DNA from: a virus | Lineage: Duplodnaviria > Heunggongvirae > Uroviricota > Caudoviricetes | IMG/VR virus record: IMGVR_UViG_2687453319_000001 | Reading direction: 5' to 3' (one strand) | DNA length: 37,753 bases | Part shown: in pieces, positions 27,283 through 30,961 of the stretch | How the letters are laid out: each line of letters begins with the position of its first letter | Numbering within the stretch: position 1 is the stretch's first letter | Translations under genes and position numbers: made by a program | The notes under the pieces: generated by a model | What the model was told of the DNA's origin: nothing | Seen by the model: the letters and a program-made list of their open reading frames with translations, nothing else | Database searches by the model: none

Positions 27283-27301
27283 GATACCTCCTGAACAGAA
27301 A

Positions 27302-27317
27302 CAGCCCTGAAGGGCTG
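27302..27317 (-). terminator. Hairpin (CAGCCC-tgaa-GGGCTG) between convergent genes; putative terminator of the repressor operon
   Basis: Perfect 6-bp stem directly after the stop of the 27320..27910 gene, T-rich tract adjacent on the minus strand. Confidence 0.35.
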
Positions 27318-27319
27318 CA

Positions 27320-27910
27320 CTAAAAAAAGAAGTGTATTATTGCCCAAACAGCTATAACGATGATTCCCAGCCCAAGAGCCGATTCTAACTTATCTTTGGC
27401 AGTCATTTTTACTGTTGTAGCGGGCGCAGGTAAGTCTTGCTGCTGTGGATTTTCTGTTAGTTGTTTACGAGAAGAAACATCGCCCCTGTTAGTTTGCTTC
27501 ATGTTGATTACAGATGCGTTATGGGCATTATCAGCAGCAATTGACTGAAGTTTTACAAAAGTTTTTGAATCTGTTTTAGCCAGAAGTAACCTATTTCCCG
27601 TAAACATTGCCTTAAAAGTGATAGTTTTTTTCGTCTTGTCCGCCGCACCAAGCAAACCTCCAATGACCAACCCTGCACCACCAAAGATTAATCCACCAAG
27701 CAAACCTGCGCCTGCCGCCTTACCTATACGGCTTTCCTCTTCACTATCCGCAAGTTCAATCGATAAAAGCTCTTCTTTCAGATTTAATACAATATTTTCA
27801 GGAAAGCCTTGTTTTGGTTTTTTGGCAAACACGATGGTACCGAACCCCATGCTTGCCCACCCTTTAGGAAAACTTCCTGCGATAACCTGAATCCCTGCCA
27901 TGTTCATCAC
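27320..27910 (-). CDS. Accessory membrane protein Y: glycine-zipper TM plus C-terminal TM (candidate exclusion/abortive-infection effector)
   Basis: 196 aa (start possibly at 27901, RBS AAGGTG); GKAAGAGLLGGLIFGGAGLVIGGLLGA glycine-zipper segment and C-terminal LGLGIIVIAVWAIIHFFF; last gene of the repressor operon. Confidence 0.5.
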   Translation of the reverse strand: MMNMAGIQVIAGSFPKGWASMGFGTIVFAKKPKQGFPENIVLNLKEELLSIELADSEEESRIGKAAGAGLLGGLIFGGAGLVIGGLLGAADKTKKTITFKAMFTGNRLLLAKTDSKTFVKLQSIAADNAHNASVINMKQTNRGDVSSRKQLTENPQQQDLPAPATTVKMTAKDKLESALGLGIIVIAVWAIIHFFF

Positions 27911-27991
27911 CTTTTACATTAAAATTTCAGAACGCAGCATGATGCCGCCTTTGTCTTTTTTCTGATCCCATGGTAATTCAGCTGTTATTTT

Positions 27992-28978
27992 CTATTTAAG
28001 AATAAAACGGTATTTACTGTCAGGAGTGCTTTGCTGATCAAGTAGCAGTGAACGACATGGAGCAGTCAAAACCCGAGCATAACTACCATCAGGGCTTATG
28101 TTAATGTAACAAACCTTGCCCTTAACACTATAATTTTCGGGGACGGATGCCTTTGCTGATACAGTAAATTTAAGGGTATGCCAGCCCGTTTTTTGCTTGT
28201 AGCTTGAAACCGAATGGAAATCATCTGAGTACTTATTTAACCCTGGAAACATGCTGCGCAGTGCGGGGATGGAATCTTCTATTATTTTATCGTTGGTTTT
28301 AATGTTAAAAACGCTGGTTTCAGTAGAAGCTACTGCTTTGGCATTTCCCCATTTACCAGCGAACACAATCATTCCCACGAAAAATATTGCTACAAGAACT
28401 AACACTCCCCCCAACACTACTACATGAGGCTTCCGGCTTCTGGTTGGTACAGTTGCGACTGATTTTGCACCGCTTTCCGATGGAGGTGATAGAGTTTTAC
28501 TCTCATCACGAATATTCAGCAGATCATCAAAATAACCAAACACAGCCTGCAACTGCTCTTTGTCTAGGCCTTTAAGATGGGTTGTACCGAAATGCTTCAG
28601 ACAGTATCTGTCACGGTCAAGACGATACCCAGGGTCAGTAAGCGCCATTATTTTGCTGACCAGAAGATTACAGTCCTTCATATTCTGGATCTGTTGTGCA
28701 TATCTCTGAAGGATCTCAACCGCACCATGATAATCAGCCGCAGTCATTTCATTAACTGTTTTGGTATTAAGTTTCGTGTGGATCGTCATCCATAGCTCGC
28801 GCTTACTTTCCCCCAGATCAACCAATTCATCCATCAATCTGTGTAAATCGCGTTTTTGCAGCAACGAAATTGGTTGCTGGGCCGAAGGAAGTATGTCAGC
28901 AGAATAGTTATGAATGGTAACATCACCGCTGACAACGTTACCCACATCCCCGTTAACTGTTTGCTTCTCTTTACTCAT
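27992..28978 (-). CDS. Accessory protein X: cytoplasmic N-domain, single TM, periplasmic C-domain (candidate sensor of a Rex-like module)
   Basis: 328 aa; start overlaps the repressor stop; TM HVVVLGGVLVLVAIFFVGMIVFAG; N-terminal motif GDVGNVVSGDVTI resembles the repressor C-terminal HGDVLGNVIKGNVTI. Confidence 0.5.
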   Translation of the reverse strand: MSKEKQTVNGDVGNVVSGDVTIHNYSADILPSAQQPISLLQKRDLHRLMDELVDLGESKRELWMTIHTKLNTKTVNEMTAADYHGAVEILQRYAQQIQNMKDCNLLVSKIMALTDPGYRLDRDRYCLKHFGTTHLKGLDKEQLQAVFGYFDDLLNIRDESKTLSPPSESGAKSVATVPTRSRKPHVVVLGGVLVLVAIFFVGMIVFAGKWGNAKAVASTETSVFNIKTNDKIIEDSIPALRSMFPGLNKYSDDFHSVSSYKQKTGWHTLKFTVSAKASVPENYSVKGKVCYINISPDGSYARVLTAPCRSLLLDQQSTPDSKYRFILK

Positions 28979-29400
28979 CTTCTCTTGGTATTTTTGTTCA
29001 TTATTCCACCTGTTCCTATGGTTACGTTACCTTTGATAACATTCCCCAGAACATCTCCATGAATAACCTGTTCCGCCCGTTCTCTGGAGGAGCCAGTAGT
29101 CAAGGCCGACAAAACTGAACCTTTGACCTGTAATGGTGCCTGCCGGTAGTGCTGCAGTAACTCCATTTCATCACGTGATAAAGTTATACCTGATGACTCC
29201 CCGGTAAGAATGAACTGTACATTGGCCCCAATTCTTGCAAAGGCTGCAAGTAACTCACCTCCGGGAACAGCAACCCCTCGTTCATATTTCCCCCACATTT
29301 CTCTTGAAACGCCACAAAGGGCTGCTACTTCAGCCTGCTTGAGTGATAACCGCGAACGCTCAGCTTTGAACCGCGACGCGCAAAGAGAATCAAAATTCAC
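28975..29400 (-). CDS. Prophage repressor (HTH, XRE/Cro-C1 family); start uncertain (GTG 29400 or ATG 29436)
   Basis: HTH segment LSLKQAEVAALCGVSREMWGKYERG; divergent from the early operon; the ORF-track ATG at 29436 lies inside the -10 of the early promoter, so GTG at 29400 (GAGG RBS) is more plausible. Confidence 0.8.
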   Translation of the reverse strand: MNFDSLCASRFKAERSRLSLKQAEVAALCGVSREMWGKYERGVAVPGGELLAAFARIGANVQFILTGESSGITLSRDEMELLQHYRQAPLQVKGSVLSALTTGSSRERAEQVIHGDVLGNVIKGNVTIGTGGIMNKNTKRR

Positions 29401-29410
29401 ATAAACCTCA

Positions 29411-29439
29411 TTGACAATGAGAACAATAGTTCTCATAAT
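29411..29439 (+). promoter_or_regulatory. Early promoter Pe (TTGACA-17 bp-CATAAT) with a 20-bp perfect palindromic operator (ATGAGAACAATAGTTCTCAT, 29417-29436) in the spacer
   Basis: Consensus -35, 17-bp spacer, near-consensus -10, about 45 bp upstream of the first early gene; palindrome fills the spacer. Confidence 0.6.
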
Positions 29440-29486
29440 CTATCACATATAAAACAAACATCATTGCATCAACAAAGGAGACAACA

Positions 29487-29675
29487 ATGACTTCCGAACA
29501 AGTTAAAAATCTCTTCCGTCAGCGTGGTATCACGTTTACCCGCTGGGCCGAAGAACACGGCTACAGCCGCAATGAGGTCTATCGTGTTCTCAATGGACAG
29601 ACCAAAGCTCGTTACGGCAAAGCCCATGAAATTGCCGTAAAACTGGGATTAAAACCCACGTCAAATGCGGCATAA
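29487..29675 (+). CDS. Small DNA-binding early regulator (Ner/Cro-like)
   Basis: 62 aa, AAGGAG RBS; first gene of the early operon divergent from the repressor, as Mu ner. Confidence 0.55.
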   Translation: MTSEQVKNLFRQRGITFTRWAEEHGYSRNEVYRVLNGQTKARYGKAHEIAVKLGLKPTSNAA

Positions 29676-29727
29676 ATTTTCCACATATGCAACAGGTTAT
29701 CACATATTGCAAAAATGGAAATGTGAC

Positions 29728-30036
29728 ATGAGTAAAGTAAATATTTCCAGTTCTGGGACCCGCATCCTACGTGTACTCAAAGCTCTACGCGGTCATGCTC
29801 TGAACGGTGTTTCTAACGGTGAACTGGCATCAGCCCTGGGGGAGTCCCCGGCGAATATCAATCGAGCACTTAATACCCTTATTGAAGAGGGACTGGCCAT
29901 GAAATTAGAGAACGGACGTTTCGCACCGGGAATCCAGTTACTACAGATCGCCATGGCTCACAGTCACGAGATGGCGCGTGCACAGGATCGTATTAACGAA
30001 ATCAACCAACGAGTTATTTCAGGTAGTCGTTTGTAA
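29728..30036 (+). CDS. Winged-helix transcriptional regulator (IclR-like HTH domain only)
   Basis: TRILRVLKALRGHALNGVSNGELASALGESPANINRALNTLIEEGLAMKLENGRF resembles the IclR N-terminal HTH. Confidence 0.5.
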   Translation: MSKVNISSSGTRILRVLKALRGHALNGVSNGELASALGESPANINRALNTLIEEGLAMKLENGRFAPGIQLLQIAMAHSHEMARAQDRINEINQRVISGSRL

Positions 30037-30046
30037 GGAGTAATCA

Positions 30047-30961
30047 ATGGGACGCACCAAATCACCCGTTAACACTGAACTGAATGTTGAGGTTCCGCTG
30101 TCAGATAACATCAATGTCAATTTGAACGCTATGACACAGCATCGCATGGAAATTATGCAGCAGTTTGGTGATGGACTGCCTTATGAACGTGATCGCATTG
30201 TTCACGAAGCACGTTTTTATATGGCGCAGAGTGCTGAATCTATGCTGGAAGCGGGTAAGCGGCTGATCATCTTAAAAGAAAATGAGCCACACGGTGATTT
30301 TACAAACATTTTAGAAAATGAACTCGGACTTGCACCACAAGTTGCTCGCCGCATGATGCAAGCCAGTATGAAGTTTTTGGGAGAAGGTGATGAGCCAACA
30401 AAACGCTCAACGTTGAGCGTTTTGGGGAAAGCCAAACTGTACGACCTGATGGTTCTGGATAATGAAGAACTTGATGAATTGGCCGACGGCGGCACAGTTG
30501 CCGGCCTGACGCTTGACGACGTTGATCGCATGTCAGTACGTGAATTGCGTCAGGCCCTGCGCGAAGCGCGCGAAACCAACGCAGCACAACAGCGCGTACT
30601 CGCCGACAAAAATGAAAAAATAGATTCACTCTCCACCAGACTGGAGAAGAAATCCCGTATTCAGCCGCCTGAGCCTGATGAGGAGGTTAAGAAGCTGCGG
30701 GCGGAAGTAACAGCATTAGCGGTTGAGGCGGAATCTGCTATCGCCGTCCGACTGTCCAGCGCTTTTGAGACGCTGTGCGCATATTGTGCTGAAAACATGA
30801 TTGATACCCCCAGAGACTTCATGGCAGGCCTGGTCTGTCAACTGGAAAGCACAGCGCGTAGCCTGCGCTCCACATTTGACCTGCCGGACGAGCCAACAGG
30901 CAATGCAGCGCCTTCATGGCTGACTGAGCCGACGCCACAGATTAACGGGCTGGAGGCATAA
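30047..30961 (+). CDS. Hypothetical early protein
   Basis: 304 aa, AAGGAG RBS; immediately upstream of the transposase; no recognised motif. Confidence 0.45.
   Translation: MGRTKSPVNTELNVEVPLSDNINVNLNAMTQHRMEIMQQFGDGLPYERDRIVHEARFYMAQSAESMLEAGKRLIILKENEPHGDFTNILENELGLAPQVARRMMQASMKFLGEGDEPTKRSTLSVLGKAKLYDLMVLDNEELDELADGGTVAGLTLDDVDRMSVRELRQALREARETNAAQQRVLADKNEKIDSLSTRLEKKSRIQPPEPDEEVKKLRAEVTALAVEAESAIAVRLSSAFETLCAYCAENMIDTPRDFMAGLVCQLESTARSLRSTFDLPDEPTGNAAPSWLTEPTPQINGLEA

What the first reader, a model, noticed from the sequence alone, without database searches (positions are those of the whole stretch)
28920..29080. Shared GDV-GNV-x-G-[DN]-VTI motif at repressor C-terminus and protein X N-terminus
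Repressor ends ...VIHGDVLGNVIKGNVTIGTGG and X begins MSKEKQTVNGDVGNVVSGDVTIHNY. The DNA is not identical, so this is a conserved peptide motif, not a recent duplication. It could be a common interaction or oligomerisation element coupling the repressor to X.
Basis: seen in the sequence. Interest (0 to 1): 0.55.

Follow-up and report, generated by a model that had tools for sequence, protein, structure and literature searches.

The report
Repressor tail matches membrane partner's N-terminus
The prophage repressor ends in a roughly 20-residue peptide that reappears at the start of the membrane protein encoded by the next gene, and this matched pair co-varies across many prophages, which points to an undescribed physical link between a lysogeny repressor and a membrane-anchored partner.

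Summary
The repressor (28975-29436, minus strand) carries AEQVIHGDVLGNVIKGNVTIG near its C-terminus. Protein X (27992-28978, minus strand; ATGA stop/start overlap) begins KQTVNGDVGNVVSGDVTIHNY. They match at 11/21 residues (E 3e-4). The motif occurs nowhere else in the six-frame translation, and the DNA is about 60% identical.

It is also general. In 62 repressor-seeded and 42 partner-seeded unique gene pairs from other prophages, the repressor tail and the downstream protein's N-terminus share the same class-specific variant of one motif (consensus about QifhGdvGqVAGRDiinn). Cognate pairs beat shuffled pairs at z=14.8. All 80 partner-seeded loci have a matching upstream tail, and the motif is found only at these termini.

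The tail travels with X rather than with the DNA-binding domain: the tail is 82-89% identical where the HTH is 35-53%.

X has four parts: the motif, a Flk_N helical domain, a transmembrane helix and a periplasmic domain. Other partners share only the motif and membrane anchoring. AlphaFold2 models both motif regions as disordered in the monomers.

Best reading: the motif is a homotypic docking tag that ties an XRE repressor without a cleavage domain to a co-transcribed membrane-anchored regulator. The logic resembles SinR/SinI or amyloid-signalling gene pairs. Whether the two proteins bind, and what binding would do, is untested. I found no prior description.

The parts
28975..29436 (-). Prophage repressor gene (153 aa as annotated). 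It encodes an XRE-type HTH, two linker helices and a flexible C-terminal tail, and has no S24 peptidase domain.
   Evidence: ORF list. Pfam HTH_31 4.7e-7 and HTH_3 8.5e-5, no Peptidase_S24. RefSeq calls it a helix-turn-helix domain-containing protein. AF2: HTH aa 18-78 pLDDT about 90, helices 88-114 about 80, tail 116-153 below 50.
29014..29076 (-). Repressor C-terminal tail motif AEQVIHGDVLGNVIKGNVTIG (aa 121-141).
   Evidence: It is 82-89% identical in homologues whose HTH is only 35-53% identical. AF2 models it as disordered with a weak hairpin.
28978..29013 (-). Gly-rich then basic C-terminal end of the repressor (TGGIMNKNTKRR). A basic end (KKK, NKKNK or KRKR) follows the motif in most tail classes.
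27992..28978 (-). Gene X (328 aa), the membrane-anchored partner. Its start overlaps the repressor stop (ATGA), so the two are most likely co-transcribed and translationally coupled.
   Evidence: It matches phrog_10002, function unknown. Its orthologues come from Escherichia, Salmonella, Morganella, Serratia and Yersinia.
28904..28966 (-). N-terminal motif of X, KQTVNGDVGNVVSGDVTIHNY (aa 5-25).
   Evidence: It is nearly invariant across X orthologues. AF2 gives pLDDT below 50 for aa 1-28.
28499..28891 (-). Flk_N-type helical cytoplasmic domain of X (about aa 30-160).
   Evidence: Precomputed PF27202 Flk_N. NCBIfam Flk NF007987 hits aa 19-147 at E 2.9e-12, far below the equivalog cut-off. AF2 models helices with pLDDT above 90.
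28355..28426 (-). Single transmembrane helix of X (aa 185-208, HVVVLGGVLVLVAIFFVGMIVFAG).
   Evidence: Hydropathy scan, AF2 helix 191-205, coordinates.
27995..28306 (-). C-terminal alpha/beta domain of X beyond the TM helix (aa 225-328), presumably periplasmic. It is absent from the shorter tail-anchored partners in other prophages.
   Evidence: AF2 pLDDT above 90. It is conserved at 45-84% in orthologues. It has no significant structural neighbour in PDB or BFVD. Short partners end at the TM helix.

Best explanation
The shared peptide is a specific, co-evolving docking tag. An XRE-type prophage repressor that lacks an autocleavage domain carries, on a flexible C-terminal tail, a roughly 15-20-residue Gly/Asn/Asp/Val-rich segment predicted to favour beta structure. 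The next gene in the same operon encodes a membrane-anchored protein. Here it is X, with the layout motif, Flk_N helical domain, TM helix, periplasmic domain, and its cytoplasmic N-terminus carries the same segment.

I propose that the two copies pair with each other (homotypic beta-strand association), so that X recruits the repressor at the inner membrane. The most likely consequence is that X sets how much repressor is free to bind operators. That would make X a membrane-tethered anti-repressor or sensor that links an envelope or periplasmic cue to the lysogeny switch of phages that cannot use RecA-mediated repressor cleavage.

Shown here:
- the motif pair;
- its positional exclusivity;
- its class-specific covariation;
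- its stronger conservation than the flanking sequence;
- its modular inheritance with the partner gene;
- the domain layout of both proteins.

Inferred:
- direct binding (my estimate about 0.75);
- that the partner controls the repressor rather than the reverse (about 0.4);
- the nature of the signal (unknown).
For: 1. The match is real and unique in the window.

2. Covariation. In 62 unique, tightly linked repressor/downstream pairs, cognate tail versus N-terminus Smith-Waterman scores sum to 2277, against 1344 +/- 63 for shuffled partners (z 14.8; 0 of 10000 permutations reach the observed value). Distinct variants are each matched in cis:
- GDVxGNVxxGxVTI (window)
- GNRVAGRDY/FxE
- HRxALGDYxE (L072)
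- FNGxxxGQFxxxxIIN (L004)
- GQVxAxNIYNI (L065)
- HGGQFxxxxINNY (L008)
- GGVQVGxVxG (L086)
. Within the AGRDY class alone, cognate still exceeds non-cognate (p 0.009).

3. Seeding from the partner side, 80 of 80 loci (42 unique pairs) have an upstream ORF 2-22 nt away that ends in the matching tail. These include a second XRE subfamily.

4. The motif profile hits only N-termini (68) and C-termini (65) among 4381 ORFs. Tail-less repressors of the same family have unrelated downstream genes.

5. Mosaicism. The tail is 82-89% identical where the HTH is 35-53%. Equal contig lengths suggest those divergent repressors sit on the same contigs as X orthologues.

6. AF2 models both motif regions as disordered in the monomers, as expected for segments that fold on binding.

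7. Partners of unrelated architecture share only the motif plus membrane anchoring. They include Flk_N with a TM anchor, Zn-ribbon with 2 TM, and about 140 aa with 2 TM.

8. Flk, the characterised relative of the X N-domain, is a C-terminally anchored cytoplasmic inhibitor that acts through protein contacts (PMC13344023). The Flk_N region of the L002 partner (tested on that protein, not on X) also hits the PHROG families 'anti-repressor Ant' (E 4.9e-6) and 'anti-repressor' (1e-4).

9. The repressor has no S24 peptidase domain, so it needs some other route of inactivation.
Against: - No binding was shown, and no multimer prediction was possible with the tools.
- In a Lonsdalea/Pseudomonas subclass (L014-L018, L023-L028) the partner keeps a motif behind an extra N-terminal helix, but the repressor ends in a helical segment without it. 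The motif therefore has some role of its own, for example partner self-assembly.
- One tail-like repressor (L010) is followed by a DUF4236 protein with no match.
- A shared third-party binder (protease or chaperone) would maintain similarity without direct contact.
- An anti-repressor co-expressed with its repressor must be held inactive by something unknown.
- The small 2-TM partners look more like membrane effectors than sensors.
- The Ant and Red-beta C-terminal domain similarities are weak.
- Many pairs are phylogenetically related, so the permutation statistics overstate independence.
Confidence: 0.5

Rival explanations
1. Amyloid-like (prion-like) signalling. The motif would be a new amyloid signalling motif. 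On a trigger, one protein oligomerises, its motif adopts a cross-beta fold, and that fold templates the motif of the other. The outcome would be either aggregation and inactivation of the repressor (induction) or activation of the membrane protein.
For: - The genomic signature is exactly the one used to define such motifs: the same short motif at the C-terminus of the upstream product and the N-terminus of the downstream product of collinear, overlapping genes (bioRxiv 10.1101/2020.01.06.895854).
- The mechanism has been demonstrated in E. coli for Bab/Agp (bioRxiv 10.1101/2024.11.07.622273).
- The motif is 15-20 aa, rich in G/N/D/Q with alternating V/I, and modelled as disordered in the monomers.
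- Residues are identical in register in the core columns.
- Some partners carry two tandem copies of the motif (P0141, P0166, P0172, P0176), reminiscent of HET-s r1/r2 against the single NWD2 copy (HET-s/NWD2 detail from my own knowledge).
Against: - No NLR/STAND sensor and no HeLo/Bell/Bab effector is present.
- There is no hit to the Pfam amyloid-motif families.
- The commonest class (NRVAGRDYxE) is quite charged.
- An essential, constitutively expressed repressor with an amyloid-prone tail would be risky for the phage.
- No fibril evidence exists.
Confidence: 0.2
2. Antitoxin-like neutralisation. The membrane protein would be the effector (toxin, exclusion or lysis-timing factor) that acts by self-assembling through its N-terminal motif. 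The repressor tail, a copy of that motif, would cap it. Loss of repressor through curing, induction or host shut-off by a superinfecting phage would then free the effector.
For: - Gene order and the ATGA overlap (regulator first, effector second) resemble type II toxin-antitoxin operons with XRE antitoxins.
- The tail is disordered, like the toxin-binding tails of antitoxins.
- Many partners are small 2-TM proteins.
- The motif persists in partners whose repressor lacks it, consistent with a primary role in partner self-assembly.
- The module is optional and sits where lysogen-expressed accessory genes sit. A PADLOC candidate (PDC-S48, E 4.7e-6) follows it in L002.
Against: - No partner matches a known toxin or defence family.
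- Flk_N partners are large, mostly cytoplasmic regulator-like proteins, and Flk itself is not toxic.
- X has a well-folded periplasmic domain typical of sensors.
Confidence: 0.2
3. Shared recognition tag for a third party. Both peptides would be recognised by the same host or phage factor, such as a ClpXP, Lon or FtsH adaptor or a chaperone. X would act as a competitor or decoy that tunes repressor turnover.
For: - The C-terminal tail of the phage Mu repressor controls ClpXP degradation (my own knowledge, not tested here).
- Both motifs are terminal and flexible.
- Competition for one site would also select for similarity.
Against: - At least ten divergent motif variants are each matched within a pair. 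That would require a co-varying third factor in every prophage or host, and none is conserved in the neighbourhoods examined.
- The hosts range from Enterobacterales to Pasteurellaceae, Pseudomonas and Betaproteobacteria.
Confidence: 0.08
4. Chance similarity, or a neutral relic of a partial duplication of low-complexity sequence with no function.
For: The motif is short and compositionally simple. The single-pair BLASTP E-value is only 3e-4.
Against: - Covariation z is 14.8.
- All 80 partner-seeded loci carry the matching tail.
- The motif is found only at these termini.
- It is conserved more strongly than flanking sequence although the DNA has diverged.
Confidence: 0.02

Closest known systems
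SinR/SinI (and SlrR/SlrA) of Bacillus subtilis
   Same: An XRE/phage-type HTH repressor whose C-terminal segment is shared with the product of the adjacent gene. The antagonist binds the repressor by mimicking that segment. (Established knowledge, not tested here.)
   Different: The shared SinI segment is a pair of helices (Pfam SinI). Here the segment is Gly/Asn/Val-rich, predicted to favour beta structure, and disordered when alone. SinI is a small soluble protein encoded upstream. Here the partner is a membrane protein encoded downstream and translationally coupled. No SinI domain hit was found.
Amyloid signalling motif gene pairs (fungal HET-S/NWD2; bacterial BASS Bell/NLR pairs; E. coli Bab/Agp BASS11)
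   Same: The same short motif sits at the C-terminus of the upstream product and the N-terminus of the downstream product of collinear, often overlapping genes. There are many motif families, each matched within a pair. One of the two proteins is membrane-targeted.
   Different: No NLR/STAND or TPR sensor and no Bell/HeLo/Bab effector is present. The C-terminal carrier is a DNA-binding prophage repressor, and the membrane protein carries the N-terminal copy. The sequence matches none of the Pfam amyloid motif families. Amyloid formation is untested.
Flk (Fluke/RflH), flagellar type III secretion-switch inhibitor of Salmonella and E. coli
   Same: The cytoplasmic domain of X is homologous to the N-terminal region of Flk (PF27202; NF007987 E 2.9e-12). 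Both are membrane-anchored with the domain facing the cytoplasm. Flk acts as a tethered inhibitor (PMC13344023).
   Different: X scores 46.6 bits against an equivalog cut-off of 353, so it is not Flk. X is encoded in a prophage immunity operon, has the N-terminal motif, and has an extra periplasmic domain. True Flk proteins (P0177, P0179, P0180) lack a clear motif.
Membrane sequestration of transcription factors (Mlc by PtsG; sigma factors by membrane anti-sigma factors such as RseA)
   Same: A membrane protein holds a soluble transcription regulator away from DNA in response to a signal. This is the functional logic proposed here. (Established knowledge.)
   Different: Those systems use globular interfaces without sequence similarity between the partners. 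Here the link would be a duplicated terminal peptide. Sequestration is only inferred.
Type II toxin-antitoxin operons with XRE-HTH antitoxins (HigA, MqsA, HipB)
   Same: The HTH autoregulator is encoded first and overlaps the second gene. A disordered tail on the regulator is available to bind the second product. The HTH gives weak hits to antitoxin families.
   Different: The downstream proteins match no toxin family. The regulator is in the position of the prophage immunity repressor, divergent from the ner-like and transposase genes. In known systems toxin and antitoxin do not share a motif.

Membership tests
Amyloid signalling motif pair (HET-s/NWD2, BASS, Bab/Agp) | The same short motif at the C-terminus of one protein and the N-terminus of the protein encoded by the adjacent collinear gene. 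| tested here: met
   Gene gaps range from -4 to +35 nt. The criterion is as stated in bioRxiv 10.1101/2020.01.06.895854.
Amyloid signalling motif pair (HET-s/NWD2, BASS, Bab/Agp) | A motif of about 15-25 aa, flexible in the monomer, rich in G/N/Q with alternating hydrophobic residues. | tested here: inconclusive
   The length and the disorder in AF2 models fit. The composition fits for the window class but is more charged in the AGRDY class. No amyloid predictor was available.
Amyloid signalling motif pair (HET-s/NWD2, BASS, Bab/Agp) | Sequence membership in a described motif family. | tested here: not met
   No Pfam hit to the HET-s, NACHT_sigma, Ses_B/PP or RHIM families for either protein or for the isolated peptides. 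Profiles for BASS1-11 were not available, so those families were not tested.
Amyloid signalling motif pair (HET-s/NWD2, BASS, Bab/Agp) | The partners are an NLR/STAND-type (or Agp-type) sensor and a HeLo/Bell/Bab membrane-disrupting effector. | tested here: not met
   The carriers are an HTH_31 repressor and a Flk_N membrane protein. There is no NACHT, NB-ARC, TPR or Bell hit and no PADLOC hit.
Amyloid signalling motif pair (HET-s/NWD2, BASS, Bab/Agp) | The motif forms cross-beta fibrils and templates its partner. | not testable with these tools
   This needs peptide fibrillation assays (ThT, EM, ssNMR) and foci assays.
SinR/SinI-type repressor-antagonist pair | An XRE-type HTH repressor whose C-terminal segment is shared with the adjacent gene product. 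| tested here: met
   HTH_31 and HTH_3. Shared segment.
SinR/SinI-type repressor-antagonist pair | The shared segment is the helical SinI oligomerisation domain, and the antagonist is a small soluble protein. | tested here: not met
   No SinI Pfam hit was found. The segment is modelled as disordered with a weak hairpin. The partner is a 328-aa membrane protein.
SinR/SinI-type repressor-antagonist pair | The antagonist binds the repressor and blocks its DNA binding. | not testable with these tools
   This needs binding and EMSA or reporter assays.
Flk (NF007987 equivalog; Pfam Flk_N PF27202) | Presence of the Flk_N domain. | tested here: met
   Precomputed PF27202 on X and on partners in L002, L004 and L006. 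NF007987 hits aa 19-147 at E 2.9e-12.
Flk (NF007987 equivalog; Pfam Flk_N PF27202) | Full-length equivalence to Flk (score at or above the curated cut-off of 353 bits) with a C-terminal tail anchor. | tested here: not met
   The score is 46.6 bits. X continues for 120 aa beyond its TM helix. The short partners in L002 and L004 are tail-anchored, but they also score far below the cut-off.
Type II toxin-antitoxin module with XRE antitoxin | The downstream gene encodes a member of a known toxin family. | tested here: not met
   Pfam, NCBIfam and PADLOC give no toxin or defence hit for X or for the other partner types tested.
Type II toxin-antitoxin module with XRE antitoxin | The downstream product is toxic and is neutralised by the upstream product. 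| not testable with these tools
   This needs expression and toxicity assays.
LexA/CI-type autocleavable repressor | A C-terminal S24 peptidase domain with the Ser/Lys dyad. | tested here: not met
   There is no Peptidase_S24 hit. The protein ends 75 aa after the HTH. A few distant homologues (P0092, P0093, P0102) do carry PF00717.

The most novel reading that the evidence does not exclude
A prophage lysogeny switch governed by amyloid-like templating. On an envelope or infection signal, a membrane-anchored sensor such as X would convert the matching tail of the immunity repressor into an aggregated cross-beta state, or the reverse would happen. That would flip the lysis-lysogeny decision, or trigger a membrane effector, without SOS. 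It would extend amyloid signalling motifs from NLR/cell-death pairs to transcription factors and to phage decision circuits. The many matched motif classes would act as orthogonal wiring between heteroimmune phages.
Probability: 0.2. Interest if true: 0.9.

Novelty: new variant of a known kind. Interest (0 to 1): 0.72.

Why it matters
Many temperate phages of Proteobacteria, including BcepMu-like transposable prophages such as this one and integrase-type prophages, have short XRE repressors without an autocleavage domain. How these repressors are inactivated is mostly unknown.

A co-evolving peptide tag that ties such repressors to a co-transcribed membrane protein suggests a testable, SOS-independent input to the lysogeny switch. 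Alternatively, it suggests a repressor-gated membrane effector.

The many matched motif variants look like a natural set of orthogonal short interaction tags. The module is present with at least 99% identity in 98 of 5426 complete E. coli genomes (99 hold at least 80% of the queried region), so experiments are easy to set up.

The finding also gives a context for the poorly understood Flk_N domain. Nearly all of its non-Flk members begin with this motif.

Tried and rejected
- The search for related loci with a mixed Flk_N alignment failed because no conserved stretch was available. I replaced it with repressor-seeded scans and a partner-seeded scan.
At 42 aa it returned only 3 short hits. I therefore could not test whether the motif occurs outside repressor/partner pairs in the large database.
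- Foldseek of the X model against PDB and BFVD gave nothing significant. The only suggestive match was the Red-beta C-terminal three-helix bundle (probability 0.85, E about 1). I did not build on it.
- Pfam scans of other partner types and of the isolated peptides found nothing: no bactofilin, HET-s, RHIM or SinI.
- PADLOC gave no hit for X or the partners tested.
- No PDB chain carries the motif.
- Literature searches for amyloid signalling plus repressor/prophage, Flk plus prophage, the motif strings, and BcepMu repressor found no prior description.
- I considered an in-frame repressor-X fusion arising by recombination between the two motif copies and rejected it. The aligned Gly codons lie 107 nt apart, which is not a multiple of 3, and exact DNA identity runs are very short.
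- I considered a recent duplication and rejected it because the DNA is only about 60% identical.
Full report
**Setting**

The 37.7-kb window is a transposable prophage of E. coli. Structural and lysis genes lie on the minus strand (about 440-26300). An early operon lies on the plus strand from 29487 and encodes a ner-like HTH, an IclR-type HTH, a DUF3102 protein, a 589-aa rve transposase and an AAA+ ExeA-like protein. From my own knowledge this layout resembles BcepMu-type phages.

I queried the immunity region 27300-30100 against 5426 complete E. coli genomes. It is present at 99% identity or more in 98 genomes, and 99 genomes hold at least 80% of it. About 500 further genomes match only part of it. 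Only one isolated phage record shares even the early-gene part.

**The observation**

Two minus-strand genes diverge from the early operon.

- The repressor (28975-29436, 153 aa as annotated) has an XRE-type HTH (Pfam HTH_31 4.7e-7) and no S24 peptidase domain.
- X (27992-28978, 328 aa) starts inside the repressor stop codon (ATGA).

BLASTP aligns repressor 120-140 (RAEQVIHGDVLGNVIKGNVTI) with X 3-22 (KEKQTVNGDVGNVVSGDVTI) at 11/21 identities, E 3e-4 for the single comparison. Regular expressions for the motif hit only these two places in the six-frame translation of the window. The two coding stretches are about 60% identical with many synonymous changes.

**What the two proteins are**

AlphaFold2 with family alignments gives the following for the repressor: a confident HTH (aa 18-78), two helices (88-114) and a low-confidence tail (116-153, pLDDT below 50, with a weak hairpin at 133-140).

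For X the model gives:
- a disordered N-terminus (aa 1-28);
- a confident all-helical domain (30-160);
- a linker;
- one TM helix (185-208);
- a confident alpha/beta domain (225-328).

The helical domain is Pfam Flk_N (PF27202, precomputed). It also matches the NCBIfam model of the flagellar regulator Flk over aa 19-147 (E 2.9e-12), but at 46.6 bits against a cut-off of 353. X is therefore a relative of Flk, not Flk itself. [quoted passage not shown]

Foldseek found no significant structural neighbour for X. PADLOC found nothing for X.

**Conservation**

In 21 X homologues from Escherichia, Salmonella, Morganella, Serratia and Yersinia, residues 5-25 are 86-100% identical. Over the same set the Flk_N domain falls to 51%, the linker and TM region to 11-30%, and the periplasmic domain to 45%.

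In repressor homologues with the same tail, the tail stays 82-89% identical while the HTH drops to 35-53%. Several of these divergent repressors appear to share contigs with X orthologues, because the longest-contig lengths reported are equal. The tail is thus inherited with X and not with the DNA-binding specificity.

**The key result: class-specific covariation**

Repressor homologues carry different tails or none. Where there is a tail, the next gene starts with the same variant. The table gives examples.

| Locus and host | Repressor tail | Downstream protein starts with | Downstream protein type |
|---|---|---|---|
| L002, Salmonella (integrase-type prophage) | ...INVSGSGNRVAGRDYHEKKK | MNLNSNGDKNKIAGRDYKEN... 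| Flk_N protein |
| L004, Pectobacterium (transposable prophage) | ...SQIFNGDVSGQFAGNQIINNG... | MRQEFNGTAQGQFSSRDIINIH... | Flk_N protein |
| L006/L007 (the same pair on two contigs) | ...EQIFHGSVGQVIKGDATY... | MTQSFHGDTGVVAGGDVFNV... | Flk_N protein |
| L008, Mannheimia | ...FAGDVHGGQFSTGTINNYGEKK | ..SAIHGGQFGQVINNYY.. | 143-aa two-TM protein, not Flk_N |

I then fetched 99 loci with the conserved HTH as bait and extracted each repressor tail and the next ORF. Among 62 unique tightly linked pairs:

- Cognate Smith-Waterman scores average 36.7, against 21.4 for non-cognate pairs.
- The cognate sum is 2277, against 1344 +/- 63 for shuffled partners (z 14.8; none of 10000 permutations reaches it).
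- Further matched variants appear: HRxALGDYxE (L072), GQVxAxNIYNI (L065), GGVQVGxVxG (L086), GxQAAGRxIxN (L069) and others.
- Within the commonest class (NRVAGRDY/F) cognate pairs are still more alike than non-cognate ones (p 0.009).

Seeding from the partner side gives the same picture. All 80 loci (42 unique pairs) have an upstream ORF 2-22 nt away that ends in the matching tail. These include a second XRE subfamily with a different recognition helix.

With a profile of the motif, tail and partner hits co-occur as follows: 23 both, 0 tail only, 2 partner only, 37 neither (Fisher p 5e-15). Among all 4381 unique six-frame ORFs of the held sequences, the profile hits 68 N-termini, 65 C-termini and nothing else. 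Tail-less repressors of the family are followed by unrelated genes, for example an integrase in L067.

All variants align in register to one consensus, roughly QifhGdvGqVAGRDiinn. Identity between cognate copies is concentrated in about ten core columns.

These statistics are inflated by shared ancestry among loci. The qualitative pattern does not depend on them: many distinct variants, each matched in cis, on at least two prophage backbones and two HTH subfamilies.

**The partners**

The downstream proteins share only the N-terminal motif and, in nearly all cases, membrane anchoring. The types seen are:
- Flk_N plus a C-terminal TM anchor (about 190-225 aa), or with an added periplasmic domain (X and L006);
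- proteins of about 120 aa with a CPxCE...CRHCE zinc ribbon and two TM helices;
- proteins of about 140 aa with two TM helices;
- a few that lack TM helices: two longer soluble proteins (L079, L086) and two short ORFs (L078, L110).

An exhaustive phmmer search with X aa 1-165 finds only 53 clusters in 1.84 billion representatives. Nearly all begin with a variant of the motif, and genuine Flk proteins sit at the weak end without a clear motif.

The Flk_N region of the L002 partner also matches the PHROG families annotated 'anti-repressor Ant' (4.9e-6) and 'anti-repressor' (1e-4).

**Interpretation**

The data show a modular, co-evolving pair of terminal peptides. One sits on a flexible tail of a repressor and the other on the cytoplasmic N-terminus of a co-transcribed membrane protein.

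The simplest reading is direct homotypic association of the two copies, which would bring the repressor to the membrane. I put direct, class-specific contact at about 0.75.

What follows from contact is not shown. I favour control of repressor availability by the partner, as a tethered anti-repressor, sensor or stabiliser, at about 0.4. My reasons:
- The repressor lacks an autocleavage domain.
- X has the layout of a one-pass signalling protein with a folded periplasmic domain.
- Flk is a tethered inhibitor.
- Flk_N resembles a domain of Ant-type anti-repressors.

The rivals share the contact but differ in what follows:
- Amyloid-like templating, as in Bab/Agp or HET-S/NWD2. The genomic signature is identical, but the carrier domains are not, and fibril formation is untested (0.2).
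- Antitoxin-like capping of a membrane effector by the repressor tail. Operon order, the small 2-TM partners and the subclass below fit this reading (0.2).
- A shared third-party binder. This is hard to reconcile with ten or more matched variants (0.08).
- Chance or a neutral relic (0.02).

**Observations that do not fit neatly**

- In Lonsdalea and Pseudomonas loci (L014-L018, L023-L028) the partner has an extra N-terminal helix followed by a motif (ITISVGGDNPGSIHV or LIVKIKGDYGNINLG). The repressor there ends in a helical segment (...VLKLVINR) with no motif. The same N-terminal layout occurs in Flk_N representatives P0136, P0149, P0155, P0173 and P0178. This suggests the motif also serves partner self-assembly, and that coupling to the repressor can use another interface.
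- L010 has a Gly/Val/His-rich tail but a DUF4236 neighbour with no match.

**Comparison with what is known**

The closest mechanistic precedent for an XRE repressor that shares its C-terminal segment with the adjacent gene product is SinR/SinI. That segment is helical and the antagonist is small and soluble.

The closest genomic precedent is the amyloid-signalling gene pair. It has different carrier domains, and none of the Pfam amyloid motif families match.

The module fails the tests for membership of Flk proper, of known toxin families and of known defence systems.

Full-text searches found no description of a repressor-linked motif of this kind. I therefore rate it a new variant of a known kind (matched terminal-motif gene pairs), with a real chance of being more than that.

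Noticed in passing
window 29398-29436: A perfect palindrome, ATGAGAAC-AATA-GTTCTCAT (29417-29436), covers the annotated ATG of the repressor. It occurs once in the window, although 11 of 100 shuffles also give at least one match. Most homologues start at MNFDSL, which corresponds here to a GTG at 29398-29400 with a GAGG 5 nt upstream. The real repressor may therefore be 141 aa, and the palindrome may be an operator or promoter element.
   Followed up: partly
window 27320-27910 (minus strand): Directly downstream of X lies a 196-aa ORF (RefSeq annotates it as 193 aa) with a glycine-zipper-like stretch (GAGLLGGLIFGGAGLVIGGLLG) and a C-terminal hydrophobic anchor (phrog_12025, function unknown). 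It is a second lysogen-side membrane protein of unknown role.
   Followed up: no
L014-L018, L023-L028 (Lonsdalea, Pseudomonas): In this subclass the downstream membrane protein has an N-terminal helix followed by a beta motif, while the repressor ends in a helical ...VLKLVINR segment without the motif. This may be a second kind of coupling interface.
   Followed up: partly
L002 5149-6054: Between the Flk_N partner and the integrase lies a 301-aa protein with a weak BRCT hit and a PADLOC candidate hit (PDC-S48, E 4.7e-6). The repressor operon may continue into a defence gene.
   Followed up: no
proteins P0132-P0180: The Flk_N family is small: 53 clusters in 1.84 billion representatives. Nearly all members start with the motif. 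Genuine Flk proteins (MQPISNPGNVSLQG...) sit at the edge of detection, so chromosomal Flk may be a domesticated relative of these prophage proteins.
   Followed up: partly
P0141, P0166, P0172, P0176 (N-termini): Some partners carry two tandem copies of the motif, for example NRTAGRNYYEV...NNVAGRDVIHV, whereas the repressor tails examined show one copy.
   Followed up: partly
L002 4458-5129 (partner) versus PHROGs: The Flk_N region matches phrog_245 'anti-repressor Ant' (E 4.9e-6), phrog_2127 'anti-repressor' (1e-4) and, weakly, an Erf-like annealing protein family. Foldseek of X weakly matches the Red-beta C-terminal peptide-binding bundle. Together these hint at a shared small helical protein-binding module.
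   Followed up: partly
window 27300-30100 versus E. coli genomes: 98 of 5426 complete genomes carry this immunity region at 99% identity or more (99 cover at least 80% of it). About 500 more match only part of the query at 80-90% identity. This suggests that related prophages carry different immunity cassettes.
   Followed up: partly
P0021, P0022, P0024, P0139: Naturally truncated X variants exist. Forms of about 180-200 aa end near the TM helix and lack the periplasmic domain, and a 47-aa form is frameshifted just after the motif.
   Followed up: no
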